A stretch of 64,000 bases of DNA from an uncultured Chloroflexia bacterium. GTDB taxonomy: Bacteria; Chloroflexota; Anaerolineae; Anaerolineales; Villigracilaceae. Location of the stretch: positions 8,083 to 72,082 of the forward strand of contig CAVVPC010000008.1 of the NCBI GenBank assembly GCA_963750005.1, in the 5' to 3' direction. The notes below the pieces were generated by a model. That model was given only the letters and a program-made list of their open reading frames with translations, had not been told where the DNA came from and ran no database searches. Made by a program: the position numbers and the translations under genes. Below, piece by piece: positions 21,063-45,040 of the stretch (positions are counted from its first letter, which is position 1; the number at the start of each line of letters is the position of its first letter).

Positions 21063-21083
21063 ACGGTTTGTCTGGAGTAAACC

Positions 21084-24085: not shown

Positions 24086-24126
24086 ATTGATCGCTCTCAC
24101 TGAGTGTATGAAGACCTTCGCCGAGC
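24086..24126 (+). repeat. Module-boundary palindromic element, truncated copy 1
   Basis: attgatcgctctcactgag..agaccttcgccgagc; the last 15 nt are identical to the 3' end of the 44935-45040 copy. Confidence 0.5.
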
Positions 24127-24226
24127 TGAGGACCTTTGCTCTGCCTTTCGGCAGACGTATAAATCTTGCTCAAGTTCTATTTGCAAAAGGAATTACTTAT
24201 GTCATAATAAGTCAACTAGGGAGGCA

Positions 24227-27200
24227 AATTGATCGTCCACCCACCGGTACAGTTACGTTCCTTTTTACAGATATCGAAGGCAGCACGACGGCTGGCGCGG
24301 AGTACCCGGACACATGGGAGAGGCGCGGGCACGGCACCATGAGATTTTGCGCGATGCGATCGAATCCAACCATGGATTTGTCTTCCAGATCATCGGTGAC
24401 GCCTTTTGCGCTGCATTCCACCGGCAGGCGACGCGGTCAATGCAGCGCCTCGGCGCAGCAGGCTTCAGGAGGAGACCTGGGGGAAATACCGATTCGTGTC
24501 CGCATGGGCATCCACACCGGCGAAGCGGAATTCGATGGGACGGATTATCGTGGCTATGCCACGCTGAGCTTGGTCCAGCGATTGATGTCTGCCGGGCATG
24601 GCGGGCAGATCCTGGTTTCGGGAGCAACTGAAAATCTTCTGCAGGAGTCAGCTTCCCGGAGAGTCAGCCTGCGGGATATGGGCAGAGCATCATTTCAAGG
24701 ATGTACCCCAACCGTACGCATTTTCCAGGTGATTGCACCCGACCTGCCCAGGCGAATTTCCCCCCTGCGCACCATGACCATCTTCCCAACAACCTCCCAC
24801 CCCAGCTCACCAGCTTCGTGGGCCGGGAAAAGGAAGCTGGCAGACATGGAAAACGGCTCTTCGCAGATACTCATATGCTCACGCTCATCGGCCCGGGCGG
24901 GACAGGCAAAACCCGCCTTTCCATCCAGGCGGCAGTGAAATGCTGGATCGGCTTTCCCGACGGCCTCTGGCTCGTGGAGCTGGCGCCCATCCTGGACCCG
25001 CTGCTGGTCCCACGCACCACCGCCGATGACCATCGGCCTGCGTGACGAGCCGCAGCGCCCCGTCATCGACATGCTGTGCGATTATCTGCACGAGCGGAAG
25101 ATGCTGCATCATTCTCGATAACTGCGAGCACCTGGTGGATGCCTGCGCCAGGCTGGCCGACCATCCTGCACGCTGCCCATATGTCCGCATCCTGGCCAGC
25201 AGCCGCGAGGCCCTGGGGATCGGCGGCGAGGTGACCTATCGCGTCCCTCCCTGGGCCTGCCGGATATCGGCCATCTGCCCGCCGTCGAACCGCTGGGCCA
25301 GTATGAAGCGCGTGCAGCTGTTCATCGACCGCGCCACGCGCGGCCGTCCCATCCTTTACCGTGACGAAGAGAATGCTCCCGCCGTCGCCCAGGTCTGCCA
25401 CCGCCTGGACGGCATTCCCCTGGCGATCGAGCTGGCCGCCGCAAAAGTCCGCGTGCTGAGCGTGGAGCAGATCGCCAAACGGCTGGACGACCGCTTCCGC
25501 CTGCTGACCGGCGGCAGCCGCACCGCCCTGGAGCGCCACCAGACCCTGCGGGCGGCCATCGACTGGAGCTACAACCTGCTCCCCGCCGCCGAACAGGTCC
25601 TGTTCCGCAGGTTGTCGGTCTTCGTCGGCGGGTGGACCTGGAAGCGGCCGAGTCGATCGTGCGGCGACGGAATGGAAGAGGATATTTTCGATCTGCTGGA
25701 GCAGCTGGTCAACAAATCGCTGGTCATGCTGAGACGGGGGCAGGAGACCCGCTATCGCATGCTGGAGACCATCCGGCAATATGCCAGTGAGAAATTGCTG
25801 GATGCAGGAGGATCAAAAGATCCGCGGATAAGCACCTGGCTTATTTTGTAGAACTGGCTTGGACAGGCCGAGCCGGAGCTCTATCGTTCCAATCAAGTGT
25901 TCTGGTTCAATAAACTGGATGATGAGCTCGATAATTTCCGCGCGGCTTCGGATTGGGCATTGGCGACAAATGTCGAATCCGGTCTGCGAATTGTTTCGGT
26001 CCCCTGGCGATTTTGGCAAAGGCACGATTATCCGGAGGCAGGAAATTGGCTGCGGCAGCTTTTGGAGCGCTATCCCAAGGATGACTTTTTGCGGGCGCAG
26101 GCGCTGACTGTACATGCCATCTATATTCGGCTGTATGGCGATTTTGGCGGGGCCGGCAAACAGGCCGAACAGGGTTTGAAGCTGGCACGCGCACTGTCGG
26201 ACCGGCAAAATAGGCATTTAGCCTGTTATTCCTGGGATCCATTATGGGTGGCGGTTATACCCGTGAGGGGTACTCCCTGATTGAGCAAAGCCTGCTCATT
26301 TATCGAAGTTTGGGGTGATGAGATTGGGCAGGCCACAGCAGCAAGCTGGATAGCAGGAGGCCGGAACCGAACGTTCGAGACCTGTTTTATTGGAAAGTTT
26401 GAAGTTCCATCGTGACTTGGGCGATCTTTCCGGGATGGCGAATTGCTTATCCATTCTGGCAATTGAAGCGATCTGGTCGGGAGATTTTTCTTCGGCTCTT
26501 CCCTGGCTGGAAGAAGCAGAGACGCTTTATCGTGAGCTTGGAGATCAGGCTGGGGAAGCGGATACTCTACTCAACCTGGGAATGCTGGCTTATTGGCAGA
26601 GTGATTATCGACAGGCATGTTTCCATTATCAACAAGCGATGGCTATGTATGAGAAGCTTGGAGGTTTCGTGGCCATCCTGGGTACGCATTAATATGGCTT
26701 ACGCTTTCGTGAGGGCAGGGTGAACTTGCGCAGGCAAAAGAGTTGTTCGAAATTGCATTGCAAAAACGTAAAGATATAGGCGCTTTGAGTGGCTTGATCT
26801 ATGCGATAGAAGGCCTGGCAAGTCTCCATGTTCACCAGGAACAATTTAAAACGGCCACGCGACTATTCGCATGGGCGGATGCCACCCGTGAACAGATCGG
26901 CGATTCTCGTCCGCCTGTTGAAACAAAATTCTGTGGATCGTGACCTGTCGCTCATCCATGCCGGGGTTGAAAAGGCTGAATTTGACAGGTTGTCAAAAGA
27001 AGCGCAAGCCATGACGGAGGAACAGGCAGTCACACTTGCCTTTGAGCCGGTGGGGGAGGATATTCCTATGGTGAGCAACGCTTACCCAGCCCCTCTTCCT
27101 GCGCCTCGTGAAACAAGGAAACAAAAGACTGGAGCTTTGACCGAAAGGGAACGAGAGGTAGCCATCCGTATTGCGCAGGGTAAATCCAACCAGGTGATCG

Positions 27201-27364
27201 CCGCGGATCTATTTCTGAGTTTGAAAACCGTGGAAGTACATGTAACGCGGATATTGTCCAAACTGGGTTTCTCCTCCCGGGCCCAGATTGCTGCCTGGGC
27301 AGTAGCAAAGGGCCTGGCCGAAGCACCGCAGGAGCTGAAGACGCCTGGCGGGAATGGGCAGTAA
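24227..27364 (+). CDS. Class III nucleotide cyclase - STAND ATPase - TPR - LuxR HTH regulator (Rv0386-like architecture), frameshifted
   Basis: LFTDIEGST, IIGDAF, VRMGIHTGE; NNLPPQLTSFVGRE, GPGGTGKT, LDNCEHL, RLDGIPLAIELAAA; LTEREREVAIRIAQGKSN..KTVEVHV. Confidence 0.88.
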
Positions 27365-27365
27365 G

Positions 27366-27426
27366 CGACGAGGGGATTGACTGAAGGTTCACAGATCCCA
27401 AGGAGAGCTTTGATCCGCCTTTCGGG
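27366..27426 (+). repeat. Module-boundary palindromic element, copy 2
   Basis: cgacgaggggattgactgaaggttcacagatcccaaggagag. Confidence 0.6.
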
Positions 27427-27765
27427 ATAAGGTGATCACCTATTAACGGAGACCGAAGAGAAGATATCTGGTCCATCCGTTGTGGAAATATTTCTTTCAA
27501 CCTTGTTATAAAACAGAAAATACTATCGCTGGCCGGTTGAACGTTAGCTTTCAACGCTTCCCTTCACTCTATGTATTTTGCAGAAGACATATTCACGCCC
27601 ACAGGGAAGAACCTTCAAAATGGAGTAAATTTGTCGTAAAATAAGCCTCAACTTTCCACTCACCGGAAGTTATATGTTATGCAGGCGTAGATACGCCGTA
27701 AATTCAAGAGTTTTCTGGACTCACAGGAGTATCTACCAAAACCATTCGTAACTCGCAAGGTTATA

Positions 27766-28338: not shown

Positions 28339-28363
28339 ATTTGGGCACCGCCTGCATATTTTT

Positions 28364-28580
28364 CCAGCTCATCGAGGGTCTTTGCGACACTTCCCGGGAC
28401 CCCGATCGGGCCGGGAGCCCGACGCCCTATCAGGATGCTTTGCGAGGGCGAAACGGCCGACCAGCCGGGGGTGCAGGTGAGCGCCCCTGTAGCGTAACGG
28501 AGGGGGTTGACCCCGACGAGATGACTGACCGGAAGTCTCACAGATCGCGTGGAGAACTGCGGTCCACGTTTCGGCCAGGG
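28364..28580 (+). repeat. Module-boundary palindromic element, copy 3 (with internal insertion)
   Basis: ccagctcatcgagggtcttt...tgaccccgacgagatgactgaccggaagtctcacagatcgcgtggaga..ggtcca..tttcggc. Confidence 0.7.
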
Positions 28581-28687
28581 TGATCTTTACCCTCTAATGA
28601 GGCCCGCACCAGGGTGCTCCGCAGCGTGCGGCAGGGTGCGGTACTGGGCGTGGGTCACCCTGGTGAATTGTTACACAAATCACAAGA

Positions 28688-28899: not shown

Positions 28900-30570
28900 A
28901 TGAAACTTCTGAATTACAAACGGGTTGTTCAACTTCAGTCCCTACTCCTGATCATTCTTCTGGTCGGCTGTAAGTGACCGGACCGGCAGCCTTCCATCAT
29001 TCCGCCAACAATCCAGGATGTTGAGCAAGCAACAAGTACGTCTTCCCCGTCGTCGCGCGAATCATGAGAAGAAACGATTCCATCTACTTCTACAAACCCT
29101 CCAGTTGTACAAGCAATTGTTACATCTTCTCCTGTCGTTCCTCTTGTTCCTTCTGTTACAGAACCAGGCAATCCATCTACTTCTACTAGCCCTCCAGTTA
29201 TAGAAACAATTGTTACATCATCTCCTGCTCTTCCCTTGCGTGCAGGAGCAACAGCTACGTTTACACCTATCGCTCCTCCCCCGCCAGCGGCAACACCGGA
29301 GCCATTTTGGGTTGATCCGGTAAGTTCCCCAACGGATCAACGAAACCAAGTGATTATCGTCCATATCGGAAATGGAGAAGAGGTAATAGTAACTACAGAG
29401 TCTGGGCAAGTTCAAAGTGGAAGGCAATTTTGATACCTACAACAACCCGGCGAAAGTCGAAATAACCCTGCTACCCAACACTGTGAACCATCTTGAAGTG
29501 ACTGCAAAAGTAAGAACAATCGATGCTGGAAACGGTTATACGTACGGTGGCTATACCCTTGAAACCACAAGAGACAAAGTAGGTGCACCCCTGACAATTG
29601 TACAGGGAGAACCAGTACCACAACATGCGACGAGTATCATCACGGTGGATAATGCTTCACGCCTGGAGCAATTAACCTCCTTTTCACCGGATGCGTGCCT
29701 GGTCACAGATTTTGTATTCAGTAATCAACATGAGATGATAAGTGTGGGATTCGATAGCAACATTTCTGTGTGGAGCACAGATACAGGAAAGGAAGTCCGT
29801 CAAATCGGCAGCACCCGCGGAGCTGCCCTAGCGTCACGACAAACTCTGACAACTCATGGATCGCTACTGGCGGCACAGCTTCCGACCCAAGCGTCCGCCT
29901 ATGGAACACGCAAACCGGGGAAATCAAAGAACTTGGAAGTGATCAATCCTATCTGAATAGCATTGCGTTTAACCCTAATGGCACAAGACTCGCGAGTGGC
30001 GGTAACGATGATACAGTTATCGTTTGGGATGTAGACAGCGGGCAATCACTCACTACCTTTAAGGGTGATGTACCGGGCAGATTTCAATCGTTTAATCACC
30101 TTTTTTGGATCGATAATGACATTCTCGTCGCAGGTGGCTCCGACGCGATTTACTGGTGGGATACCAATACTGGTGCTCTGCTAAAGCGTCTGGCAAAACC
30201 GGATGCGGCCGCTTTTTTTGTCGACACAGCCGTCAGCCAGGCCGGCGACCGTGTGGCTGCCGCTGCGCAGGATGCTTATGTTTATTTCTGGGACCAGGCA
30301 GATAATCAGTGGTCGCGCTGGCCAGCAGTATCTGATCGTATTGTTACCCAGGTTAGTTTTAGCCCAGATGGGCAACTGTTGGTGGGCGGAACCGATACAG
30401 GCCAGATGTTGATCTGGGATGTTGAGACTCGCAGCAGCTGGCACAATATTCCAATTCAAATTCATCCCCTGCCAACTATTAAAATTTAGTTCAGATGGAT
30501 TTTATATTGCTTTCGCAGGGTAATGGGGATGGTCCAATTCGATTATGGGGAATCCCTTTACTCGATAAAC
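28900..30570 (+). pseudogene. Lipoprotein with Pro/Thr/Ser linker, Ig-like segment and WD40 propeller; two in-frame TGA stops plus frameshifts
   Basis: Lipobox LVGC; TGA at 28975 and 29065 in frame; SIAFNPNGTRLASGGNDDTVIVWD, VSFSPDGQLLVGG; linker direct repeat at 29080 and 29173. Confidence 0.7.
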
Positions 30571-30714
30571 ACAAATCGGCTCACCAAATTGATGAAAAGC
30601 AGGGCCAAAGAGTTGTGCAAGCCGCCGTTCACCTCCCCTGGCCTGGAGCAGATTTTCCAAAAGTACATTCCGACTTTTACTTCGCAGCGATAAAAGTTGG
30701 AGAAGGAGCAGAGC

Positions 30715-31190
30715 ATGCCAAACAAAAGAAAAAAACAGCAGGCGGAATTCAGATTGGCGGCGGCGTCAGCGTAACGAATGGAGACATCGTTGCAGGTGAC
30801 AAGACCATCAATGTCGATAACGGCGGTGTCTATGCAGGGGGTGATATTCAGAGCAGCACCATCGTCAACAGGTGATGGAAACCGGGTGGGCAATCAGGAA
30901 GCGGTGCGGGATGAGCTATTCAATGCGCTGATCGCTAGGATCGATGTAGCGGCCCAACACATCTTCTGAGGATCGTGAAAGATCTCAAGGCAAATGTCAC
31001 CGAGATCAAGGATGAAACCAAGAAAGGTAATAAAGCCGATGCGTCCTTTCTTTCTCGACGCTTACGGAATATCCAGATGATTGCGCCAGATATTGCCGAG
31101 GTGATCTGGAACACTTGCCAACCCTGCGGCTGGGTTTGCGGCCGTCGTTGGAAGATTGCCCGGCAGGCTCAGAAAGTGTCTGCCGCATGA
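30715..31190 (+). CDS. Small protein with N-terminal Gly/Val/Ile/Asp beta-repeat motif and a helical C-terminal domain (frameshifted)
   Basis: RBS aggag; MPKQKKKTAGGIQIGGGVSVTNGDIVAGDKTINVDNGGVYAGGDIQSSTIV..GDGNRVG, then DLKANVTEIKDE..FLSRRLRNIQMIAPDIAEV. Confidence 0.65.
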
Positions 31191-31206
31191 TTTGAAATTT
31201 ATCCCG

Positions 31207-32680
31207 ATGGGGTAAAAGAAATCTTCAGCGTACATTAGCCTGTGTATTTAGGGGGATGTCAAAATTACCGGCGGTGCTTTTGTCGCCGGTGATAACGTCA
31301 CCAGGGCGGGGGGTGAAGGCGCTTCCCGAAAAGAGGCAAATCGCATAGTTGGAGACCAGGATACAAACCTCCTACGCAAAGGACCTGGATCTGCAGCAGG
31401 CCTGGAAGCTAGTGGGGGAGATGTTGTCTTTGGCGATAGATCATCAAATTTTTTCTCAAGATAATTTGAACATTTACGTATTTAAGGATATCAAACAACT
31501 GGCCTTTTTTTTGATCTTTATCCTCTTCTTATCGGGTGGGATAAGTGGAGCCTACTGGTACGCAAAGCAGCCACCCAAGCTGACCGAAGACTACAATATG
31601 CCATCGTGCAATTCGGTGAGATTGAACCAGATGGGACGATGGAACCTTCAGACACCGCTGAAAAGATTAAGAAGCGACTTGTTCGATTATCTTGACAGTG
31701 AGTATGCTTCTTCAAGTTTTGGATTCAAGGTGCAAGTAGAACAGAAAAATATGCCCCTGATTTCCAAAATTCCCAGGCAGAGGATCTTGCTCACAAGGTA
31801 AATGCAGACATTGTGATTTATGGCAATATTTTTGTGCAAAATGATAGAGCCGAATTTTCTGCGCGTTTAGATGTATCTGAACATCCCGATACAAAGGAAT
31901 TGACGGGTCAAAATGAATTAGCCTTGCCCATTCCCTTTTTTATTTCCGAGCTTTATTCTCAAAATCCGGTTAACACTGAATTTAGAGCTCGAACACAGAT
32001 TTTGCTAAACTTCACCGAAGGCACTGATCAATTTCTCACAGAATAAACTGGGTGCAGCAGAAAATGCCTTACAAGCCGCGATCATTGAGTTTGAGACAAC
32101 CTCACAACCCTTTGCTGGACGGGAAGTGATTTACCTGCTGGGAGCTCAAATACAAACCAAGGAGGAAAATTTTGAAGCGGCGAATAATTTTCTTGATAAA
32201 TCGCTCTTGATCAACCCTGAGTATGCTAGGGCTCATCTTGCCCGTGGGAATATCTATTATTCCCAGGCACTCAAATTGAATTTTGACCCTGAAAGCTGCT
32301 AGGCTGCCCTCCATGAATATGAGCTGGCAGAACTTAATGGGTGGGATTATGGATGGGGCTAATATACCGATTAAGGCACATACAGCCATAGGGAATATCC
32401 AGGTCGTGCAGGCGCAACAGGGTAATGACCCGGATTTGTTCATGAAAGCAGCGAGAATTATGAATATGTCATAGAGCAATATCGAACAAAGCAGGGGATC
32501 CATGGTTCCAAGACTTATCCATCGCGATTACTAATCAGATTGAATCGGATCCGCCTATGAAAGACAGGGAAAGGTGAGGAAGCGATTCAGGCTTATCAAA
32601 CGCGAAGTGACCTTACAAAATGATGGCAGGGCTAGAGACGCACATTAAACCACAATCAACACTCTTCAGGGCCGGATAGA
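31207..32680 (+). pseudogene. Single-pass membrane TPR protein, heavily frameshifted (ends approximate)
   Basis: TM LAFFLIFILFLSGGISGAYWY; NADIVIYG; TPR FLDKSLLINPEYARAHLARGNIYY. Confidence 0.55.
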
Positions 32681-32787: not shown

Positions 32788-32893
32788 CTAGATCGTCGAA
32801 GGTTTGTAACCTCAATGAGATGACAACAAAGTCGACAGACCGCATGGAGACCTTTGTCCGACCTTTCAGCCTGGTCGTAGACCTTCGCTTAGC
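32788..32893 (+). repeat. Module-boundary palindromic element, copy 4
   Basis: ctagatcgtcgaaggt..gagatgac..acagaccgcatggagacc..ctttcagcctggtcgtagaccttcgcttagc. Confidence 0.7.
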
Positions 32894-33138: not shown

Positions 33139-35930
33139 ATGCTTCCAGACCGACCGGTACCGTCAAAGCTTTCTCTTCACCATATCTGAGGGCAACACGG
33201 GCCTGGCCCAGCACATCCTGGCGCCATGGCGGCGCTGTTGAAGCGGCACCACCAGATCCTGCAGGGGGCCATCGAAGGCCACCACGGGGTGGTCTTCCAG
33301 ATCATCGGGGAATGCCTTTGTGCGAGCCTCTCTTTTACAGCGGGAAGCGCTCGAGGTCGGCCGCAGCCAAGCGGGCGCTGTGTGCGGAGGACTGGAGCCT
33401 GCACCGGTTCGCGTGCGGTTGGGGGATTGCATACCGGTGAGCGGAGACTGTGAAGAGCGGGCGGAGGCTACAGCGGTTACCTGACGCTGACCCGTGTCCA
33501 GAGGTCATGTCGCTGGCGCACGGCGGGCAGATCCCTGCTCTCGCAGGCGGCCGCTGAGCTGGTGCGCACATCCGGACCCGTAGACGTTTCGCTGCGTGAC
33601 CTCGGCGAGCAGCGCCTCAAGGGACTGGCTACGTCGCGGCAACCACCTCTGGCAGGTGGAGGGCAGCTGGCCTGCCCGGCGACTCCCCGCCGCTGCGCTC
33701 GCTGCAGACCATCCCCAACAACCTGCCGGCCCAGCTGACCAGCTTCATTGGCCGGGAGAGGGAGCTCGCCGAGGTGCGTGACACGCTCAGGCGGCACCGC
33801 CTGGTCACGCTCGACCGGCTCGGCGGCGCCGGCAAGTCCCGCCTGTCGCTGCAGGTGGCGGCGGAGATGCTGGACCAGTTCGCCGGCGGGGTCTGGTCCG
33901 TGGAGCTGACCCCCTGGCGGGGAGGGCGGTCTGATCCCACAGTCCATCCTGGCGTCTGCCCCAGGGGTAGGGGTCCGACAGGGCGGGACGGCACTGCAAA
34001 GCCTGGCCGAATTCCTGCAGGAAAAGACCTGCCTGTTGATCCTGGATAACTGCGAGCACCTGGTCGAAGACTGCGCCTGGTCGGCCGGACCCTGCTGCGT
34101 CCGCCCGGGCTTGAAGATCCTGGCCTCCAGCCGGGAGGCATTGGGGGTCGGCGGGGAGCAGGCCTGGCATGTGCCCTCCCTGTGCCCGGACCCGCGCATT
34201 TAACGGCTGTCGAGCAGCTCACCGGCTATGAAGCATGGTCTGTTCACCGAACGGGCCTGCCTGGTGCAGCCGCACTTTCAGGTGACGGACGGGAATGCCC
34301 TGGCCGTTGCCCAGGTCTGCCGGTGCTGGAGCGGGATCCCATTGGCGATCGAGCTGGCCGCAGCCGCCGGCGAGCCTGGCGGTGGACAAGATCGGTGCCC
34401 GCCTCGCGACGGCTTCCGCTGCTCACCGGGCACCCACGGCCGCCCCTTCGCGCAATAGACGCCGTAGGCCCGTCACTGGGTCTGTACTCTGATCTGCTTC
34501 GGAAAACAACGCACCTGTCAGGCGGCTTGGTCTTTTCAGGCGCTGCCTGGAAATCGCGACGAGATCCGCAGCACAGGGAATCTTGGAAGTGGAGGTGTCA
34601 TCGATCTCCTGTTGGACCAACCTGGTGGATAAAATCCCTGGTGGTGGTGAAGGAGGAGCAAGCCGCGGAACGGCGCTATTCCCTGCTGGGGGAAGATGGC
34701 TTCCGCCAGTATGCCCGCGGAAAGTTTAGCCAATGTGGAGAGAGCACGGGCTACCCAGGGCCTGGCACCTGGCGTATTTTCTGGACTGGGTCAAGGCGCT
34801 CGAGCCTGACCTCCGCGGGCCGCACCAGGGAGAGCTGTTGAAGAGGGTGGAAGCTGAGATCGATAACCGGCGGGCCGCCATGGAATGGTCACGCCAGTCG
34901 ATCCGGAGGCTGGCATGGAATGGGCTTTGCCGGCTGAAAATGGTTCTGGCATTTATGCGGTCTGTTTGAGGAGGGCGAGCGCTGGCTCAAGGGCCTGCTG
35001 GCAGCCGCACCAAAAGCAGGCATTTCCCTGGAAACTTTGTTCCGGGCGGTCAGTCTGGGCTTTCCTGGATGGCGATCTGGTCGGATGATAAGGGGCTCGT
35101 CTGCCGTCGACTACCTGCAGGAAAGCAAGGCGCTTGTTGAAAAAACAGAGAGGAATCTGTTGCGGTTTTGATCCGGGCCGACAACCTGTATATTGCCGGC
35201 ATCCTGGCGCTGGCGAGGTAGAAATGTATTACAGCCAGGCAGAGCTGCTCGGACGGCAATGCCTGGAGGCCTACCGGGCCTGGCGGCAGCCGGTTTTAGG
35301 GATGGCAGAAGCGTGCATCGGATTATACGGGGGGAGCATCCAGTAAAGGCTACCTGGAAGCAGCCCGTTTTGGAACGAGACCGCCATTGCACTGCGCAAA
35401 GAGGTTGGCGATAAGGATGGCCTGGCCTTCGATCTGACGATGGGTTCCCTCGTCCCCCTTATCCTGGGCGATTACCAGGGCGCCAAACGGATCCTGGGCC
35501 AGGCGTCTGGAGGCCGGAAAAGAGACACGCTTTAAATGCGACCTGGAATGGCCCTGTGGTTTTGGGGAATGATTGCCCTGTCCAAAGGCGCCTGGGCCCG
35601 GCCCTGGATTTTTTCTCGCAGCAGGCCGCGCTGGCCGGCGATGCGAGCGATGCCATGGACAAAACCTTTACCATCTATTGCCTGATTCTGTTGCTCCTGA
35701 AGCTGGGCCAATACCGTCCGGGCCTGCAGCTCAGCGGCGGCGCTCGAAGCATCCAACCGGTATGAGGCTGTTATGCTCTATGAGAAACCCGGTGACCCAT
35801 GCTGCCTTCGTGAAGTACCGCTGGAGGCCCGGGAGGCGTAGGCGAAGCAGAGTATAACGCCGCCTATGCCGAAGGCCGCCTGCTGTCCCTCAACAGGCGG
35901 TTAGGGTTGGACTTGAACAGGCGGAGGCCG
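33139..35930 (+). pseudogene. Second cyclase - STAND ATPase - TPR gene, highly disrupted
   Basis: Fragments RHHQILQGAIEGHHGVVFQIIG, NNLPAQLTSFIGRERE, GGAGKSRL, LILDNCEHL, IPLAIELAAA, paralogous to 24227-27364. Confidence 0.75.
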
Positions 35931-35987
35931 CCTGGGCTCCTAGCTCGTCGGGGGTCTTCTGAGCACCGCCCGTGATTTGAATTGCTA

Positions 35988-36920
35988 AGAAGGCTATCCG
36001 TAAAATAGCCGGACCTTAACAAAAAATAGACACTCCTAAGGCAGAATAGTAGGTGCGAACCAAAACAATCTGCAAGGAGTGTCCAATGAGTTATACCACG
36101 CTGGGGAAATTCCCGACGAACTTTGGGAAAAGATCGAACCGTTGTTGCCCGCGGAAAAACCGGCCGGGAGTGTTGGGCGACCGGCGTTGCCGAACCGCCG
36201 AGTGTTGAATGGAATTCTGTTTGTGCTGCGCACGGGTTGCCAATGGAAAGGCTTGAAGAAAGAATGGTTTGGGGCGAGCAGCAGCCTGCATGCTCGCTTT
36301 CAAGCCTGGCAAGAAGCAGGCATCTGGAAGAAAATCTATCGAGAAATGGTGAAGTACTATCATCAGAAACGCCGTATTCAGTGGAGGTGGCAAGCGGTGG
36401 ACAGTAAGCTGGTGCCGGCGCCGCTGGGCGGGGAGCAGACCGGTCCCAACCCGACAGATCGACGCAAAATGGGCTCGAAACGCCATCTCTGGGTGGATCA
36501 GCGGGGTGCACCGTTGGCCCTGCTGCTGAGTTCGGCCAATACTAACGATCACCTGGTGGTAATGGATTTGTTCGAGCAACTGATTGTGCCCCGTCCCAAA
36601 ACCAAGTATCGAGTGCATCATGTTTGTGCCGATAAAGCCTATAAACTCGGAGCCTCTCCGAAACCAGTTACGCCAACAGAACTTCCGACCGCATTTTCGC
36701 AAGCGAGAGTTTCATGGCCCTTCCCTACCACCGCTCGAACCTCACCGTTACCCAGCCAGACGCTGGGTGGTGGAACGCACCTTGTCCTGGCAAAATGATT
36801 TCCGTTCTTTGCGTGTCCGTTGGGCCAAGAAGCCCAGCAATTGGTTAGCGCTCCTCTACTTCGCCTCTGCTCTCATCCTCTGGCGCATGGCCTCGCACAC
36901 CTGATTTACGGATAGGCTCT
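35988..36920 (+). mobile_element. IS5-family insertion sequence
   Basis: Terminal IRs agaaggctatccgtaaa / tttacggataggctct; TA on both sides (35986-87, 36921-22). Confidence 0.85.
36079..36904 (+). CDS. IS5-family DDE transposase (frameshift ~36645)
   Basis: IPDELWEKIEPLLP, NGILFVLRTGCQW, AVDSK, GSKRHLWVD, ADKAY, RWVVERT. Confidence 0.9.
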
Positions 36921-37036
36921 TAGCAATTCAAAAATCAGGCAGGAGGTGAGGACACCTGATGAGGTTCGACCCTCGCCCCGGTGCAGCGTTTTGGTGAAAA
37001 CCTTTTGAGACACTAAACCGGATGTAAAGTAGATTT

Positions 37037-37105
37037 CCCGGCGCGATGATTAACCGCGGTCTCACAGATCGCATGGAAAGCTCTGATCCTCGTTTCTGTC
37101 CGGTG
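37037..37105 (+). repeat. Module-boundary palindromic element, copy 5 (left part at 35940-35968, separated by the IS5)
   Basis: cccggcgcgatgattaaccgcggtctcacagatcgcatgga; ctagctcgtcgggggtctt..gagcacc at 35940. Confidence 0.65.
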
Positions 37106-37803
37106 AACCTAACCGCCTGGGCCTGCGATACTGTTAACAAGGTGCTCTGCGGGAGTGCTACGCACACTGGTTGGCGCCGGAGGAGACCGTTTAAGGTTGC
37201 GGCGGAGTGGGCGCAGGACCGGTCTGGAAGAGCCGTGTGTTTGTCTCCGCAGGGTGGAGCGCCGGCGTTTCCGTTGGAGCAGGTTGAATAGCCGCTGGGA
37301 GGGAGGCAACCCCGGACCTAACGGCATTTATTTTTGTGAATACCGCCTCCCTGGGGGATAAGATCTACATTTGCTGCCCGATCTACACGGCCCCCAGAAC
37401 CAGGATTGCGTCAAGATCAGGTGCCAGGACAGGACCGTGCAATTCCTGCAAACTCGCCGGAACTGGATGGATCGGGATAATTGGATAAAATGTGGACATG
37501 GCATACTTCTTTTCTGGTGAAACGATTAGTGTTTTGTAAGAACTAACCGAATTGTCCCAGAGGTCGTTATTCACAGTCGTACTGCCCGCCGTAGGCAGTG
37601 AAACACTAAATAGACAACTATAGGCAGTATGTTTCCAGGTATGAAAGTGCTATACTCGGAACAATTTATTCTACGAGTTGAGTAGTTTTAGTTTTTACAT
37701 GGTGCCGCATAATTCCTTTACTTTTTGTTACATGATCGACTACATATCGGATTTGACAAATAAAGCTGATGAGGAAACGAGCGTAGAAGTAGTGGAGGAC
37801 AGC

Positions 37804-40800
37804 ATGCTCAATTCGTCTCCTGGGCCAGTTTGATGTTCGGCTGGATGGAAAGCGCCTCCTGCTCCGTGGAGCCGCCCAATCCATGCTGGCATACTTTGCA
37901 ATGACGGCGGGGATCCCCACCGCCGGGAAAAACTGGCCGGCACCTTTTGGCCCGATACCTCGTAGGAGAACGCTCGCAAGAATTTGCGCCATGAGTCTGG
38001 CGGATCCGCAAGGCGACCTCTTCCCAGCCGTCAGAGGGGACTGACTATCTTCAGGCAAACGATCTCACCATTACTTCAATCCCCAGGCAAACTACTGGCT
38101 GGATGTTTCCCACTTTGAACAGCCTGCTGCCGAAGTCGAACCGCTGTTGTCGGGTCTGGCTTTATACCAGGGCGAGCTTTTGCCGGGTTTCTATGAGGAA
38201 TGGCTGCTGCTGGAACGGGAACGCCTGCGTTCCTGTTCGACAACAAAATGGAGCAATTGCTGGCCCTCCTGATCGCGGCCGAGCGCTGGACAACTGCCCA
38301 GGAACAGGCCGAGCGCTGGCTGGCGATGGGCAGCAGCGTGGAACCGGCCTACCGCGCCCTGATGCTGGTCTATGGAGCCCGCGGCGATATGGCCAGGGTA
38401 AGCTGGATCTATCAGCAGTGCATCGCTGCCCTGGACGAACAATTAGGTTCGAGCCCTCTGCCGAAACCCGGGCCCTGTATGACGGACTGCTGAAGGGCGC
38501 AAATTCCGTCCCGCCCGGCCAGGTGCGAACTCGGGGACGGTGACTTTTCTCTTCACCGATATCGAGGGTTCGACGAACCTGCTCGATCAAATGGGAGAGC
38601 GGTATGCCACGGCGCTGGCCGACCACCACGAGATCCTGCGCGGCGCCATCCAGAAATGGAACGGGCACGAAGTGGATACCCAGGGCGATGCCTTCTTCGT
38701 CACCTTCGCCCGTTCCATGGATGCCATCCAGTGCGCCGCCGAGGCCCAGCGCCTCCTGGCTTCCCATTCCTGGCCACAGAACCAACCCTTGCGGGTGCGT
38801 ATGGGGCTGCACTCCGGCGAGCCCCTGATTGCCTCGACCGGGTATGTCGGGATGGATGTTCATCGCGCCGCCCGGATCGGCGACGCTGCCCACGGGGGAC
38901 AGGTGCTCCTGTCGCATACCACCCGTGAGTTGGTCATGCACGACCTGCCCCAGGGCTGAGCGTCCGGGACCCTGGGCGAGCACCGCCTCAAGGATCTGAA
39001 ATATCCCACCCCGATCTACCAGTTGGTTGTGGGGGCTTTGCCCCAGGATTTCCCGCCGCTGCGCACCAGGTTCGCTGGCACCGAAGCCCCGGTACCGGGC
39101 GTGCCTCCGTTCAAGGGATTACAGTATTTCGAGGAAGCCGATTCAGAGCTGTTCTTCGGCCGTGAGCTGCTGACTGCCAAACTGGTGGACCGGCTGCGCC
39201 AGACCCAGTTCCTGTCGGTCATCATTGGCGCTTCGGGCAGCGGCAAATCCTCGCTGGTGCGGGCCGGGTTGATCCCTGCCCTCAAAAAGGGAGGGCCCTT
39301 CCAGTGGGCGCCAGGCCGCCGGAGGGCAGCCAGACTGGCAGATCTATATGACCACGCCGACCGCCCGTCCGCTCGAAGCACTGGCCATCGAGCTGACTCG
39401 CAGCTCGGAATCGGTCACAGCCGCGGCGACCCTGATGGACGACATCTTCAGGATCCGCGCAGTCTCTTCCTGTATCTGACCCGCCTGCATCCCAAAGGGC
39501 ATGCGCTGCTGGTGCTGGACAGTTCGAAGAGCTGTTCACGCTCTGCCGGGATGAGTTCGAGCGCGAAGCCTTCATCGACAACCTGCTGACCGCCCTCCAG
39601 CAGGGCGGGGACTGCATCACACTGGTCATTACATTACGGGCCGACTTTTATGCCCACCTGGCCCAATATCCCGAGCTGCGCGAGGCCGTGGCCCAACAGC
39701 AGGAATATATCGGTCCCATGACGATGGAGGAGCTGCGCCGGGCGATCGAGGAGCCGGCCCGCCGTGCCGACTGGGAGTTCGAGCCCGGTCTGGTCGACCT
39801 GATCCTGCGCGATATCGGCGATGAGCCGGGCGCGCTGCCGCTGCTCTCGCATGCCCTGCTTGAGACCTGGAAGCGGCGGGCCGGTCACACACTGACCCTC
39901 AAGGGCTATGCCGATGCAGGCGGTGTGCGCGGCGCCATTGCCCACACGGCCGAGACACTCTATCAGAGTTTCTCCCTGGAGGAACAGGCGATCGCCCGGG
40001 ATATCTTCCTGCGCCTGACCGAATTGGGGGAGGGGACGAAGACACCCGCCGGCGGGCCTCCTTCGCAGAGCTGGTCTCTCACAGCGACCGGCCGGAGGAA
40101 GTCCGCGCCGTACTGAACGCCCTGGCGGATGCCCGCCTGGTGACCCTCGGTGAAGATACGGCCGAGGTGGCACACGAGGCCCTGATCCGGGAATGGCCGA
40201 CCCTGCGCGAATGGCTCAACCAGGACCGGGAAAGCCTGAAGCTGCACCGCCACCTGACCGAAGCTGCCCAGGAATGGGAGCTGCTCGAGCAGGATTCCGG
40301 CCTGCTCTACCGCGGCGCCCGCCTGGCCCAGGCCCGGGAATGGGCTGTTTTACATCCGAACAGATTGAATGCCTCCGAGCATTCATTCCTCGAGGCTTCC
40401 ATCGAGCAGAACCAACGCGAGATACGCGAGAAGGAGGAACAGCAGGACACGGGAGTTGGCGCAGGCCCGCAAACTGGCCGAGACCGAAAAGGCGAGAGCC
40501 GAGGAACAGACTCACGCTGCGAACCGATTGAGGCTTCGCAACCGGATCATCACCGGGGTTGGTATTGTTGCCGTGGTACTGACAATCGTCGCCGTCCTGT
40601 TTGGCCAGCAGTCGAGTACCAATGCGGCAATAGCACAAACGAACCTGGAGGTCGCCAACCAGCAGCGGGCAACGGCCGAATCCAACTTCCAGCAGGCCGA
40701 AAGCCAGCGCTTGGGCGCCGAGGGCCTGGCCCTGGCACAAAGCTCGAGCGGCAATCCGGAGCTGGCCGCCCTGCTTGCAATTCGCGGCTTACAAACGGTC

Positions 40801-42727
40801 TACTCGCCGCAGGCGGACGCGGCGCTGCAGCTGGCTCTGCCCCGGCTGTATACCGGGCGTGTTTTGGATCGACCAGGGAGAACTGGTCCTTTGTACAGCA
40901 TCGCCATTACCCCGGATGGGAAGACGCTCTTCACCAGCGACCTGGTGCTGCACGATGCCGAAACCGGCAAGGTCTCCAGTAATTTTCTGGTCTATGATTG
41001 GGGTACCCACGTCGCATTCTCGCCGGATGGTCAAAGGGCTTTGGCCGGCATGTATGGGGATCATACTGCCCGAATGTGGGATGTTAAGACGGGCAAGGAG
41101 GTGCAGGTCTTCAAGGGTCACAATGATCGTGTTATGGAAGGCGCTTTCTCTCCGGATGGCAAATGGGTGGTCACTGGCAGTGCCGATCATACCGCCCGGT
41201 TATGGGATGCGGCCACAGGTAAGGAAGTGCGCGTGTTCACTGGGCATACAGATCAGGTACAGTCCGTGGCTTTCTCGCCCGACGGCAAACAAGTGCTGAC
41301 CGGCAGCAGCGATCTAACGGCCCGTTTGTGGGATGTCGCCACCGGCCGGACACTTCGCATTTTCAAAGGGGATGATAGTTACCTCCTGCTGGCAGAGATC
41401 TTTTCGGTGCGCTTCTCAACGGATGGCAGATGGATCCTTGCCAGCGGCGGAAACAAGACCGCCTGGCTGTGGGATGCCGAAACCGGTGAGATGCTGCGCC
41501 AGTTCAAAGGGCATGGAGGGCCGGTCCGTTCGGCGGTCTTTTCGCCCGATGGCAGCCAGGTGCTGACGTCCAGCGACGACATGACCGCCCGGCTATGGGA
41601 TGCCAGGACCGGTGAATTGCTGCGGGTCTTCGTGGGCCACACCGATTCTGTTGGCAAGGCGATCTTTTCACCCGATGGTCGATCTGTGTTCACCGCCAGT
41701 TGGGATGACACCATCCGCCAGTGGAACCTGGGGCAGGATGAGCGCCTGTTTCCTCTACCGGTCATGACGAGTGCCGGACGCTTTGCTTCCGGAGGGGACT
41801 CCGTATTGATCGTAGGCTATGATGATAAGGTAGCCTGGCTGATGGATGCCCGGACGGGTCGTAAGTTGGGTCACTTCAGCGGTCATACGGACAGGCTCAG
41901 CTCTGTGGAAGTCTCAAAAGATAGAAAGTATGTGCTTACAGGCAGTTATGATGGCACAGCCCGTCTCTGGGATGCGGCGACAGGCAAGGAACTGCGCACC
42001 TTGCACGGCCATAACGATTATGTCAATGCCAGTTTCTCGGCTGACGGAAAATACATCCTGACCTCGGGCAGGGATAAGACGGTCAGAGTATGGTCGTCTG
42101 CCACCGGGGAGCAACTGCGCGTTTCTTTCATTTACCACTTCGACCGATATGCCTTCTGCAGTGGCAATCTCACCGGATGACAGCTCGGTGCTGGTCAATG
42201 TGCCGGACGATCCCTATTTTCGTCAGTGGGATATCCGGAGCGGCAAGCTCCTGGATATCTGGCCCAAAGGGGATGGGGCCGTCATCTCGAGCCTTTCCTT
42301 TTCACCAGACAGCAAGTATATTCTCGCCGGCGACAACAATGGAATAGTGCAGATATGGGAGGCTCACTCCTATCGGCCAGTGCAGACCTTCAACCATCCA
42401 GGCATGGTATATCTTGCTTCCTACTCGCCGGATGGAAAGTTCATCTGGACCAGCTGCTCAGATGGAAAAGTCAGGCAATGGGATGCTGCGACAGGGCAGT
42501 TGGTGCGTGTCTTCGATGGCCCGCGCGGGATTAGCTGGATCGACGATATTTCCCCGGATGGCAGGCAAATTCTGATCGAGTACGATGACCAATTGGTCCA
42601 CCTGTTCGAAGTGGACTACCACGACATGATCCGCTACGCCTGCTCGCGCCTGGTGCGCGATCTGACAACAGACGAGCAGAATGCTTATGGCATTACGGCT
42701 GCCGCGCCAACCTGCCCCAAGCCTTGA
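37804..42727 (+). CDS. SARP/BTAD - class III cyclase - nSTAND1-type ATPase - TM - WD40 repeat protein (frameshifted)
   Basis: RLLGQFDVRLDG, HRREKLAG, YQGELLPGFYEEW; LFTDIEGST, TQGDAFF; PFKGLQYF, GASGSGKSSLVRAGL, PGALPLL, HEALIREW; repeated GH..FSPDG..ARLWD. Confidence 0.88.
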
Positions 42728-42863
42728 GCCAGGAACTTCTTAAGTTATCCCAGCTCGTCGCAGGACATTCTCAAAGTCGAAACGTGTTCCAGTTCCATTG
42801 GTAGCTGAACCGCTAAGAGCGCCACGCCTGCTCCGGCGGGCGGTGCTAAAACTTTGTAAAGTC

Positions 42864-43085
42864 CTAGCTCGTCGAGGGCCTTTGCGGAGCACCCTGATAA
42901 GCGCTGACCCCGACGAGATGATTGACCGTGAGTCTCACAGATCGCAGGGAGACCTAACCCCCAGCCCCTTCCCAAATGGGAAGGGGAGCCTGCTCCCTCC
43001 CCGTTCGGGGAGGGTTGGGGAGGGGTTGAATGCATCCCACAGGTCGCAGGGAGACCCTCCGACCATCTTTCGGCTCGGTCGGCTC
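42864..43085 (+). repeat. Module-boundary palindromic element, copy 6, with a nested CCCCTTCCC..GGGGAGGG hairpin
   Basis: ctagctcgtcgagggcc..tgaccccgacgagatgattgaccgtgagtctcacagatcgcagggagacc; 19-nt near-identical direct repeat at 42936-42954 and 43038-43056 around the insert. Confidence 0.75.
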
Positions 43086-43269
43086 TTACCCCCTAACGGG
43101 GATCTTCGGCAGGGTATTCCGCGAAAACCTACACCGAGCGCAGAGCGCACCATGTTTGCTGCCCGCTGCTCCCGGAACGGTGGAGCGACCCATGCCGCAC
43201 GCTGAGCAACATCCCCGCGGGCCGGGGACGCTGCTCATGCGCTCGATACTCGTCGGACGCCGTCCTCGG

Positions 43270-44379
43270 TTAGTTGCTCGGCGCGAGGGAGCCGAAAAGG
43301 CCGTCCGCTTCGTCGTTGGGGCCGGCCGTAAAGTAGACCTTGTCCGCATCGCCACCATTGCCGCCGTTCCCAACAATCAGCGCCCATAGCCCGTCAATCG
43401 TGATGAAACGGTTATGGGAATCTCTGAGCTGGTCGATGAATTCGCCGGTGACGGGATCGACGATGTTGATCCGGCCATCCCCGAAGTTGCCGACCAGCAG
43501 GTCGCCTGCGAACGCCCCAAAGCTCGGCGGCGCAAACGCCAGGCCCCACGGGGAGTTGAGCCGGCCGCGAGTCGCCAGGCGCTGGAGCAGGTTGCCATCG
43601 GTATCGAAGATATCGACGTAGCCATTCGCAGGACCTGCCACATCGTCTTCGCCGTCGGCGTCCTGCTTGGCGTAGGTCACGTAGAGTTTGCCGCCGAGAT
43701 TCTGGATGTTGAAGGGCGCAAATCCACGATGGATGTTCGGGTCGCTGAACGACCCGGCCAGCTGCACCTGGTGAAAGTCTTTGTCGAAGACATCGATCGT
43801 GCCGCCGTGGAAGTTCGCGGCATAGAGGAAGTTGCCGGACGCGTTGGCGCCGATGGCGAGCCCTTTGTAGATCGCCTCGGAGGCAGAGTTATCGGCGCCC
43901 AGAATGGCATGGGTGGGATCCACCGTTGGGTTCCAGCCCGAGATGGTGCCGTCTTCGGTGGCGAAGATGAAGCGGCTTGGCGCAGAGATGGTACCGTTTG
44001 TGACCGCGAAATCCGTGGTGCCGTTGAAGACCTGGCCCGTGGGCTTGGCCGTCGTACCTGACGGACTGCCGGCGGGCGGCGGGATCGTGACGACCAGCGC
44101 CTGCTTCGTGCCGGCACCGTTGTAAAGCGTGGAGACGCCCGTACCGTTGTCGGAGACCCAGAAGGGGCTGGTGGCGCTATGCGAGATGCCCCACGCATTC
44201 ACCAGGTCCGGATCCGTGTGGAGCGCCAGACCGGGAATGTTCGAGACCAGATTGACTTGTTGGAACGTAGTTGATTTGGCCTGAGCCGGCAGGGTGACCA
44301 CAGTGAAGCTGAACACTGCCAACATCAGGGCAATGGCGATCCTGCTTGACAGTTGCCCGATTCTAAATATGCTTTTCAT
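43270..44379 (-). CDS. TIGR03118 family exported protein
   Basis: Signal peptide; DPDLVNAWGI, FWVSDNGTG, PTGQVFN, FIFATEDGTISGW, LNSPWGLA, LLVGNFGDG, GLFGSL. Confidence 0.9.
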   Translation of the reverse strand: MKSIFRIGQLSSRIAIALMLAVFSFTVVTLPAQAKSTTFQQVNLVSNIPGLALHTDPDLVNAWGISHSATSPFWVSDNGTGVSTLYNGAGTKQALVVTIPPPAGSPSGTTAKPTGQVFNGTTDFAVTNGTISAPSRFIFATEDGTISGWNPTVDPTHAILGADNSASEAIYKGLAIGANASGNFLYAANFHGGTIDVFDKDFHQVQLAGSFSDPNIHRGFAPFNIQNLGGKLYVTYAKQDADGEDDVAGPANGYVDIFDTDGNLLQRLATRGRLNSPWGLAFAPPSFGAFAGDLLVGNFGDGRINIVDPVTGEFIDQLRDSHNRFITIDGLWALIVGNGGNGGDADKVYFTAGPNDEADGLFGSLAPSN

Positions 44380-44934
44380 GGAAAAACCTCCTTTGTGTTT
44401 TCCTCATCTGAACAGCTATTCTTGCTGTCATCAGATGTAGCGGGGTGGGATCCCTTCAACCACTGACTGCTCCTGCTCGCTGGTTCCGCAGAGCGAGATG
44501 ACCATCCTCTCCTCGGGTCTCTACGAAACAGTCACTGCCGATGGCAAAAACAGCCAGACAATTATTGATAGCGATGTTGATGGCTTCTGGCCATCTAAAG
44601 GGGGTTGATATACGAATCTGATCCAGCGCAAGGGTTCAGAATTTATATATATTAATTATACGTTTGTACAGTGCAGATTGGATTTATTACTTGATACCTG
44701 GACGCCTTGACCCATCACTTCTCTTTCGTTCTTCCCGCGGATAGATACTTTGCTTACGATAACCCTGAAGACCACGCTGCCGAGAAAAAAAGTATGTCAG
44801 CCAGGGATAGGGATACATTTGACACTAAAACAACCCTTGCCGTTAGTTCAATGGAGTAGTGCAGTCGTCTACATTGTGAAGGCTAAATTATGGGGAAATA
44901 TCAAGAGAAAAATGTACTGCTTATTGTCCATAAC

Positions 44935-45040
44935 GTGCTGATGAGGGTTGCCCCAGGCGGGATGATTGACCGTGAGTCTCACAGGTCGGATGGAGACCCT
45001 CGGTCCAGCTTTCGGCTCGGTCGCAGACCTTCGCCGAGCA
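44935..45040 (+). repeat. Module-boundary palindromic element, copy 7 (right edge of the accessory region)
   Basis: gatgattgaccgtgagtctcacaggtcggatggagaccctcggtccagctttcggctcggtcgcagaccttcgccgagca. Confidence 0.75.

What the first reader, a model, noticed from the sequence alone, without database searches (positions are those of the whole stretch)
24086..45040. Integrase-less cassette-like array: one palindromic element recurs, in one orientation, at each accessory module boundary
Seen: a ~110-nt imperfect palindrome (left arm gctcgtcgagggtct..gaccccgacgagatgattgaccg..gtctc; loop acagatcgcatg; right arm gagacc..ggtc..tttcggc.cggtcg.agaccttcgccgagc) occurs at about 24086, 27366, 28364, 32788, 35940/37037, 42864 and 44935. 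The asymmetric loop reads the same way in every copy. Copies follow hsdR, the cyclase-STAND-LuxR gene (just after its stop), the UxxC gene, the WD40/TPR block, the second cyclase gene and the SARP-cyclase-WD40 gene, and one closes the TIGR03118 module. I saw none in the core flanks (1-9.3 kb, 45.1-64 kb). Knowledge: integron attC sites and REP/RAYT palindromes are folded single-strand substrates for recombinases. I see no canonical attC core (RYYYAAC..GTTRRRY) and no intI or RAYT gene in the window. Inference: this may be an undescribed gene-capture array built by a trans-acting enzyme that collects signalling/defence modules.
Basis: partly seen in the sequence, partly recalled or inferred. 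Interest (0 to 1): 0.8.

Follow-up and report, generated by a model that had tools for sequence, protein, structure and literature searches.

The report
RAYT hairpin doublets marking accessory island
The repeated palindrome is a pair of short hairpin repeats of the kind that flank a single-strand transposase gene elsewhere in this genome; its same-direction copies likely piled up between the genes of an old variable island, and capture of genes at these repeats remains untested, while a second, unrelated repeat seen here does frame gene cassettes shared between species.

Summary
Observation mostly confirmed. Seven decayed, co-oriented copies lie at 24.1-45.0 kb, plus a missed single unit at 9485-9532. 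The element is not attC. It is an asymmetric doublet (REPIN/BIME-like) of a ~50-nt two-hairpin REP that occurs on 12 of 49 contigs and flanks an intact RAYT (NF047646; subclass 2.6-like) on another contig. 9 of 10 close RAYT homologs carry it, 0 of 5 distant ones. The copies fill 7 of 9 gene gaps in the right part of a 36-kb island at a variable potD-like/dppA junction, and all doublets with this linker sit in two clusters. Cassette capture is not shown. No REP-framed cargo module was shared end to end between genomes (3 of 38 shared, all the RAYT gene), and relatives also carry doublets beside housekeeping genes. This scan found similar REPIN-framed slots before on other DNA. Side finding: window 44816-44931 is a stray copy of a different repeat, an att-like copy of the mvaD 5' end. 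It forms recombinase-free tandem arrays in many relatives, with cassettes shared at 83-91% identity (9 of 44). That system deserves its own follow-up.

The parts
9485..9532 (-).
   Evidence: (I1)
8248..9000 (-). 5' part of a potD/YdcS-like substrate-binding protein gene; left core flank of the island
   Evidence: adjoins dppA directly in 12 of 25 relatives
10845..14650 (+). AAA-TPR (STAND-like) gene, frameshifted in the assembly; island cargo without the element; GC 0.44
14973..24084 (+). Type I RM operon (hsdM with a group II intron, RT 16163-17974 and Rfam RF00029 at 17962-18061; hsdS; GxxExxY; hsdR); no element inside
24086..24128 (+). Doublet 1, internally deleted: inner end of arm A, decayed linker, outer end of arm B
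24200..27364 (+). Cyclase-NB-ARC-TPR-LuxR gene (frameshifted in the assembly)
27365..27425 (+). Doublet 2, both outer ends lost, starts at the stop codon
27691..28338 (+). Thioredoxin-like gene with an in-frame TGA (UxxC; selenocysteine inferred, as the same TGA is in the G055 homolog); GC 0.45
28364..28585 (+). Doublet 3, with about 120 nt inserted in the loop of arm A
   Evidence: 87% over 92 nt to the C15:148.7 kb copy
28950..32600 (+). Lipoprotein-WD40, small ORF and TPR block; two internal gaps without the element
32788..32893 (+). Doublet 4, short-loop form, most diverged
33150..35942 (+). Second cyclase-NB-ARC-TPR gene. Its likely stop codon is the TAG in the foot of the next element; its homolog in G022 is followed by a same-orientation doublet
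35940..37140 (+). Doublet 5, composite: arm A split by IS5, plus a 55-nt stub of the sequence that follows doublet 4, then inner arm A, linker and decayed arm B
35979..36929 (+). IS5-family insertion sequence inside the loop insert of arm A
   Evidence: (DUF4096, DDE_Tnp_1)
37790..42727 (+). SARP-like-cyclase-nSTAND1-WD40 gene (frameshifted); paralogs on C17 and C18
42864..43140 (+). Doublet 6: long-loop arm A, a nested 75-nt palindrome with a duplicated linker, then arm B; an extra arm-A foot at about 42752
43270..44379 (-). TIGR03118 family gene; not found in 81 other genus genomes at E<=1e-40
44816..44931 (+). Stray copy of a second repeat family: att-like junction (conserved arm plus a variant of the mvaD 5'-end segment), abutting doublet 7
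44935..45040 (+). Doublet 7, arm B nearly intact; about 58 nt from the dppA stop; right island border
45099..45921 (-). dppA D-aminopeptidase gene; right core flank

Best explanation
The element is an asymmetric REP doublet (REPIN/BIME-like) whose unit flanks a RAYT gene on another contig, and its co-oriented copies likely accumulated in this old accessory island by RAYT-driven insertion beside existing copies and recombination between them, marking module borders without being shown to capture them. Shown: two-hairpin unit, RAYT flanking, clustering, co-orientation, island borders, decay. Inferred: the RAYT nicks single-stranded units in trans and joins excised doublets at or near resident REPs, always on the same strand, so siblings end up co-oriented. 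Only copies between genes survive, so they look like cassette borders. Later recombination between copies likely deleted or duplicated short stretches.
For: Intact 183-aa RAYT at C3:393347-393895 between inverted units. NF047646 scores 87.4 bits against a cutoff of 80, and HLH, WQ and YxxxNP motifs align to 4ER8. A second, interrupted copy on C29 has the same flanks, and homology between the two ends at the outer foot of the right unit. 9 of 10 RAYT genes at >=59% identity have the unit beside them, 0 of 5 at 35-39%. The four other RAYT-family loci in this genome show different palindromes by eye. The large hairpin has compensatory changes in 8 of 12 pairs across 42 units, 0 of 500 shuffles reaching 28 cells (relatedness not controlled). 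Doublets sit beside housekeeping genes in G090. A lone doublet with no cargo lies at the same potD-like/dppA junction in G090. No cargo module was shared end to end, while the same test found 9 of 44 for the mvaD-att arrays. Most REP feet with a homologous protein hit lie near natural gene ends. PMC3333891 (passages) proposes integration at targets already carrying a REP/BIME, and PMC8266576 (passages) reports REPs multiplied near their origin.
Against: Occupancy is extreme: 7 of 9 gene gaps hold one composite element each, against about 25-30 loci in 4.6 Mb. Seven of seven are co-oriented (2 x 0.5^7 = 0.016 if independent). The C8 and C15 clusters share sub-lineages of copies and a module leader. 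Module GC varies from 0.44 to 0.62. A UxxC homolog is framed by co-oriented doublets also in G055 (1 of 6 homolog loci). RHS gene fragments adjoin a REP foot in 4 loci. A strand bias from replication could not be shown (GC skew agreed in 8 of 12).
Confidence: 0.55

Rival explanations
1. The array is built by gene capture. The RAYT would excise single-stranded circles made of cargo plus one doublet and join them at a resident doublet, adding one co-oriented copy per module, an HUH analogue of an integron.
For: Co-orientation, one linker lineage per cluster and near one-per-gap occupancy here and in small clusters of G067, G095, G057 and G055. The empty site with a lone doublet in G090 and different cargo beside a REP at the same junction in G077 and G083. 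RHS fragments at REP feet. TnpA-REP cleaves far from its REP and transfers strands in vitro, and the authors propose sequestration of neighbouring genes (PMC3333891, passages).
Against: 3 of 38 REP-framed modules from 11 genomes were shared, all three the RAYT gene itself. Homolog loci mostly lack the element: 1 of 6 UxxC, 0 of 3 WD40, 0 of 4 SARP and 0 of 5 cyclase loci (some cut by contig ends), and 1 of 26 short cyclase loci. In G055 the framed segment includes what reads as the tail of an unrelated upstream gene. Gene orientation relative to the arms is not fixed: the A arm faces a gene start in 10 of 14 doublets of relatives but a gene end in 6 of 7 here. Only 5 of 100 feet passed the truncation filter, most unconvincing.
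Confidence: 0.25
2. The island was assembled by other routes (att-site accretion such as the mvaD-type system, IS5, homologous recombination), and the doublets served only as short portable homology for RecA-type exchange once present.
For: The TIGR03118 module ends in an mvaD-type att copy, oriented as cargo is in those arrays. The same cyclase-STAND and SARP gene types appear in mvaD arrays (read from translations). Doublet 5 holds a stub of the leader that follows doublet 4. REP units also sit next to att copies in G007, G059 and G124.
Against: Only one att copy was found in the window. Copies are 55-79% identical, poor homology for RecA today. This route does not by itself explain co-orientation.
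Confidence: 0.13
3. The copies are kept because they act on RNA, as terminators or stabilisers at gene ends, and the order reflects transcription direction.
For: Six of seven copies follow a gene's 3' end closely, two overlapping or abutting the stop codon. REPs are mostly downstream of genes (PMC3733652, abstract passage).
Against: No U-run follows the hairpins in the printed sequences. The copy after the minus-strand TIGR03118 module keeps the same orientation. The copies are decaying and take nested inserts.
Confidence: 0.05
4. The array is a CALIN, integron attC sites whose integrase is missing.
For: Co-oriented imperfect palindromes between unrelated genes.
Against: No copy has paired RYYYAAC/GTTRRRY ends (0 of 7 right cores; one left match lies in the upstream gene). 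No whole-element hairpin. No IntI over cutoff in the genome (best 60.7 against 265 bits; genome 63% complete). The unit flanks a RAYT.
Confidence: 0.02

Closest known systems
REPIN-RAYT / REPtron-BIME systems (Bertels & Rainey 2011 PMC3116915; Ton-Hoang 2012 PMC3333891; Corneloup 2021 PMC8266576; passages read)
   Same: Inverted REP doublet with a variable linker; same units flank a single HUH Y1 transposase gene; singles and doublets in intergenic DNA; nested insertions and clusters; heterodimeric doublets are common (PMC3733652, passages).
   Different: No GTAG foot; the unit has two hairpins; low copy number (about 30 loci); the doublet does not fold as one long hairpin; one linker lineage is packed into kb-spaced co-oriented clusters around accessory genes.
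TnpA-Y1 subclass 2.6 / RAYT group 5 (Quentin 2018 PMC6006769, passages and supplement search; Bertels 2017 PMC5581495, passages)
   Same: Length 183 aa (median 179), WQ, YxHxNP, C-terminal SS, HuH-to-Y spacing about 80 (median 82), flanked by atypical non-GTAG structures.
   Different: Described mostly from Bacteroidetes; here likely Anaerolineales (titles and names). THLH in place of NH[LIV]H. The unit's conserved 8-mer was not found in the paper's two supplementary files. Assignment is by motif, not by their HMMs or tree.
Integrons / CALINs
   Same: Co-oriented folded sites between unrelated, mostly co-directional genes.
   Different: No attC cores, no IntI, multi-kb modules with their own leaders, no shared cassettes shown.
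Prochlorosin-TnpA-REP association (bioRxiv 10.1101/2020.03.09.984088; first of two parts of the text read)
   Same: Proposal that TnpA-REP diversifies accessory gene clusters.
   Different: Subclass 2.1 enzymes interspersed with the cargo; the authors' own note finds no strong evidence for causality.
For the side finding: tandem site-specific islands and cis-mobilizable accretion, such as Dehalococcoides ssrA islands (McMurdie 2011 PMC3146451, passages)
   Same: Tandem islands bounded by partial copies of the target gene, some without an integration module.
   Different: The target is the 5' end of a protein-coding gene (mvaD), with a replacement start supplied. Units are small cassettes. No tyrosine or large serine recombinase was found at the arrays checked, whereas 16 ssrA islands carry one.

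Membership tests
REPIN-RAYT / REPtron | HUH Y1 transposase of the TnpA-REP class in the genome | tested here: met
   NF047646 over cutoff; 4ER8 match E 0.0014; Pfam Y1_Tnp did not hit
REPIN-RAYT / REPtron | The same repeat flanks the transposase gene in inverted orientation | tested here: met
   9 of 10 close homologs, 8 on both sides; 0 of 5 distant
REPIN-RAYT / REPtron | Repeat dispersed in intergenic DNA as singles and inverted doublets | tested here: met
REPIN-RAYT / REPtron | Conserved hairpin with a bulge in each unit | tested here: met
REPIN (groups 2 and 3, strict) | GTAG/GTGG tetranucleotide at the hairpin foot | tested here: not met
   alignment A2 of 42 units; expected for subclass 2.6 per PMC6006769
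REPIN (strict) | Doublet folds as one long hairpin | tested here: not met
   z 0 to -1.2 for three decayed window doublets; fresher doublets of relatives were not folded
REPIN-RAYT / REPtron | Transposase cleaves and transfers the single-stranded repeat | not testable with these tools
   needs an in vitro assay
TnpA-Y1 subclass 2.6 | Length, WQ, YIH[QN]NP-like motif, SS extension, HuH-Y spacing about 82 | tested here: met
   (motif comparison by hand)
TnpA-Y1 subclass 2.6 | Placement in the 2.6 clade or best score to its HMM | not tested
   reference HMMs and alignment not at hand
Integron / CALIN | attC with RYYYAAC and GTTRRRY ends | tested here: not met
Integron / CALIN | IntI integrase in the genome | tested here: not met
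   TIGR02249 best 60.7 of 265 bits; genome 63% complete
Gene-cassette array (any enzyme) | Same module found site to site in other genomes with other neighbours | tested here: not met
   no cargo module among 38 REP-framed segments; the positive control gave 9 of 44; small, decayed sample
Gene-cassette array (any enzyme) | Excised circles or strain-level shuffling at the site | tested here: inconclusive
   four runs of contigs, patchy cover, no joint at an element among those listed
pdif / Xer modules | dif-like sites at module borders | tested here: not met
   recalled XerC/D motifs, none at the elements
Tandem accretion islands (side finding, mvaD att) | Direct repeats that copy part of the target gene, framing units shared between genomes | tested here: met
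Tandem accretion islands (side finding, mvaD att) | Cognate integrase identified | tested here: inconclusive
   none at the arrays; the enzyme is unknown

The most novel reading that the evidence does not exclude
Subclass-2.6 RAYTs of Anaerolineales act as integron-like recombinases in trans, adding foreign signalling and defence genes one by one at REP doublets. This window is a decayed array of that kind, and it has taken up a cassette from a second recombinase-free array system that grows at the start of mvaD.
Probability: 0.2. Interest if true: 0.82.

Novelty: new member of a known kind. Interest (0 to 1): 0.44.

Why it matters
What RAYTs do for their hosts is open (PMC5581495, passages). 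This locus gives a defined enzyme and substrate pair for a subclass with no biochemistry that I saw: an intact RAYT, a two-hairpin non-GTAG REP and natural co-oriented doublets around genes. Gene capture can therefore be tested directly. If capture is real, a 'domesticated' transposase would be a gene-acquisition tool. If not, the case warns that co-oriented REPINs mimic integron arrays. The mvaD-att arrays found on the way look like a widespread cassette-exchange system of this group, rich in NLR-like and regulatory genes, with an unknown recombinase. Two literature searches found no description of them.

Tried and rejected
Rfam gave only the group II intron, and there are no tRNA or tmRNA genes. 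Pfam PF01797 missed the RAYT; NCBIfam found it. attC, IntI and dif tests were negative. A replication-strand explanation of co-orientation was inconclusive, as skew is weak and agreed in 8 of 12. The systematic truncation test at 100 REP feet first gave 0 of 100 through an identifier-parsing fault, then 5 of 100, mostly unconvincing, on a small protein set. Public runs held at most 0.17 of the words. Laying four of them on 30000-49500 gave patchy cover and no listed joint at an element, which is no evidence either way. The linker pattern gave 2 metagenome loci, both single doublets after gene ends. Viral contigs held neither repeat. TIGR03118 had no homolog in 81 genus genomes, so that module could not be compared. 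No att remnants were found at the other six window borders. Recombinase searches near mvaD arrays were empty in G000, five relatives, G243 and G124 (serine families were not searched in G243 and G124). Literature searches for RAYT with cargo, REP with integron-like cassettes and Anaerolineae REPs gave nothing on point. Frameshifts also occur in core genes, so they are likely assembly errors and I did not call any module a pseudogene. IntegronFinder is not available.

Full report
Observation. The listed positions hold related sequence in one orientation. A position-weight scan resolves each copy into two inverted units joined by a 12-nt linker. A linker-centred HMM finds the family only in this window and twice at C15:147-149 kb. 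The copies are old: the cores are 55-79% identical to each other, while two metagenome copies with the same linker are 84-90% identical to the C15 copy. Several carry nested inserts, one an IS5. A single unit at 9485-9532 was missed.

The unit. It is about 50 nt: a 4-bp hairpin, a spacer and a 12-bp bulged hairpin. Across 42 units chosen from this genome and relatives (intact short-loop units only), 8 of the 12 large-stem pairs show changes on both sides. None of 500 shuffles reach the observed 28 cells, and slid controls give at most 9 (relatedness is not controlled by the shuffle). Whole window doublets fold no better than shuffles. There is no GTAG foot, no attC core pair and no IntI in the 63%-complete genome. 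Doublets are asymmetric, a type A arm and a type B arm, which is why an orientation can be read.

The enzyme. The unit occurs on 12 of 49 contigs, on both strands. Two units flank, inverted, an intact 183-aa gene at C3:393347-393895 that passes NF047646, REP-associated tyrosine transposase, and matches E. coli TnpA-REP 4ER8 weakly. An interrupted copy on C29 has the same flanks, and the two share homology up to the outer foot of the right unit. Of 15 RAYT hits in 82 genus genomes, 9 of 10 at >=59% identity have the unit beside them and 0 of 5 at 35-39% (with for the C29 right flank). The family is large, 1174 proteins at E<=1e-20. Length, motifs and spacing fit subclass 2.6 of PMC6006769 (passages). 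The unit's conserved 8-mer was not in its two supplementary files. A doublet has the layout of this REPtron with the gene replaced by the linker, as expected of a non-autonomous derivative (inference).

The island. In 25 relatives with dppA, the potD-like gene adjoins it in 12, the pot operon is missing in 6, other cargo lies there in 5, and 2 end at the contig edge. The window thus carries about 36 kb of inserted DNA, with module GC from 0.44 to 0.62. A REP lies within 100 nt of the dppA stop in 3 of 25: a lone doublet without cargo in G090, and a doublet or single arm beside different cargo in G083 and G077. In the window the doublets fill 7 of 9 gene gaps between hsdR and dppA, and none of the gaps from 10 to 24 kb.

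For capture. Co-orientation holds in every multi-doublet cluster I saw (window, C15, G067:C414, G067:C430, G095:C14, G055:C81), and neighbouring copies tend to share a linker. C8 and C15 copies are interleaved in similarity, and the clusters share a 270-nt module leader. Doublet 5 holds a stub of the sequence following doublet 4, a sign of rearrangement between copies. The second cyclase gene's homolog in G022 is followed by a same-orientation doublet and a different gene. A UxxC homolog in G055 is framed on both sides. RHS fragments adjoin REP feet in four loci, two of them at the foot itself. PMC3333891 shows strand transfer in vitro and proposes sequestration of neighbouring genes (passages).

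Against capture. In G090 doublets with differing linkers are scattered beside proB/proA, near mutY and after pyruvate kinase. Cargo homologs mostly lack the unit: 1 of 6 UxxC, 0 of 3 WD40, 0 of 4 SARP and 0 of 5 cyclase loci, some cut by contig ends, and 1 of 26 short cyclase loci. In an all-against-all test, 3 of 38 REP-framed segments from 11 genomes were shared over 60% of both lengths, all three being the RAYT gene. The same test gave 9 of 44 for the mvaD-att segments from 18 genomes. Gene direction relative to the arms is not fixed. Most feet with a protein hit lie near natural gene ends. The sample is small and no same-species genome exists in the collection, so capture is not excluded.

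Mechanism committed to. The RAYT likely nicks single-stranded units and rejoins excised doublets at or near resident REPs on the same strand. A tolerant island fills up with co-oriented siblings, only intergenic ones persist, and recombination between copies trims or duplicates pieces (0.55). Capture of cargo by the same chemistry is the main rival (0.25). The identity of the element as a RAYT-linked REP doublet is far more secure, about 0.9, than either account of the array.

Side finding. Window 44816-44931 matched a second repeat family. On C4:110.9-130.9 kb eight co-oriented junction copies follow mvaD (mvaD named from the G090 ortholog by TIGR01240). Most consist of a conserved arm plus a copy of the promoter and first 17 or so codons of mvaD. 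52 of 82 genus genomes match the query, many only through mvaD itself, and up to 12 matches occur per genome. Of 20 loci fetched, 19 show two or more copies. The repeat also occurs in another genus and another family. Units between copies are shared: one 3.5-kb cassette of this genome is about 91% identical in G007, G012, G067 and G124, with homology ending at the att, while the pot operon is 65-73% and mvaD 64-79% identical in the relatives compared. Neighbours differ between genomes. No tyrosine or serine recombinase lay at the arrays checked. This resembles tandem accretion as at Dehalococcoides ssrA (PMC3146451, passages) but targets a protein gene's start. Two searches found no description. 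It is the better-supported recombinase-free cassette array, and only one stray copy lies in this window.

Earlier scan notes report similar REPIN-framed slots in other genomes; they are leads only. Look-ups by sequence, place and mvaD words gave nothing. Papers seen: passages of PMC6006769 (plus a supplement search), PMC3116915, PMC5581495, PMC3333891, PMC8266576, PMC3733652 and PMC3146451, and the first half of bioRxiv 2020.03.09.984088, whose supplements are closed. Gene names not tied to a family call are my reading of translations.

Verdict. A new member of a known kind: a non-GTAG, two-hairpin REPIN family with its RAYT, clustered in an accessory hotspot. Gene capture is unproven. Interest 0.44, raised by testability and by the mvaD-att lead.

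Noticed in passing
G000:C4:107843-130946 (L232, L233); stray copy at window 44816-44931; L234, L237, L272-L290, L331, L334: Recombinase-free tandem arrays of cassettes framed by co-oriented copies of the mvaD 5' end plus a conserved arm. Cassettes are shared at 83-91% between species and genera and carry NLR-like, regulatory and small-enzyme genes.
   Followed up: partly
L004:7912-9217; L201; L138; L126: RHS C-terminal fragments adjoin REP feet in four genomes, beginning or ending at the foot in G000:C3 and G077; large RHS-like genes also lie beside REP clusters in L123 and L125.
   Followed up: partly
L026 (G012:C112): The REPtron is flanked by an approximately 85-nt direct duplication of the upstream gene's end and terminator, hinting at long target duplication on insertion.
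   Followed up: no
window 9800-10330 minus; C3:392.5-392.9 kb; C29:105.0-105.4 kb; L122; L123: A small unannotated protein family (about 100-190 aa, basic N-terminus) recurs next to RAYT genes and REP units.
   Followed up: no
window 15900-18061: Group II intron with RT, maturase and HNH domains inserted in hsdM.
   Followed up: no
window 27691-28338: In-frame TGA at a UxxC motif, conserved in G055, where a second small TGA-containing Cys-rich ORF follows. In four other relatives the gene lies in or near a MerR-type metal operon.
   Followed up: partly
G000:C15:146-149 kb (L005) and C2 (L007): A second co-oriented cluster frames a thermonuclease-like gene and an orphan; co-oriented single units frame an ars operon and a cyclase gene on C2.
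   Followed up: partly
G000:C15:211.5 kb, C3:153.7 kb, C48:167 kb, C22:18.2 kb: Four further RAYT-family genes, each with its own distinct flanking palindrome; one is GTAG-footed.
   Followed up: no
G000:C17 and C18: About 94-95% identical multi-kb segments, including a REP unit and SARP-nSTAND-WD40 paralogs; a recent duplication or mixed strains in the bin.
   Followed up: no
whole window: Many frameshifts, also in core genes, likely uncorrected long-read errors.
   Followed up: no
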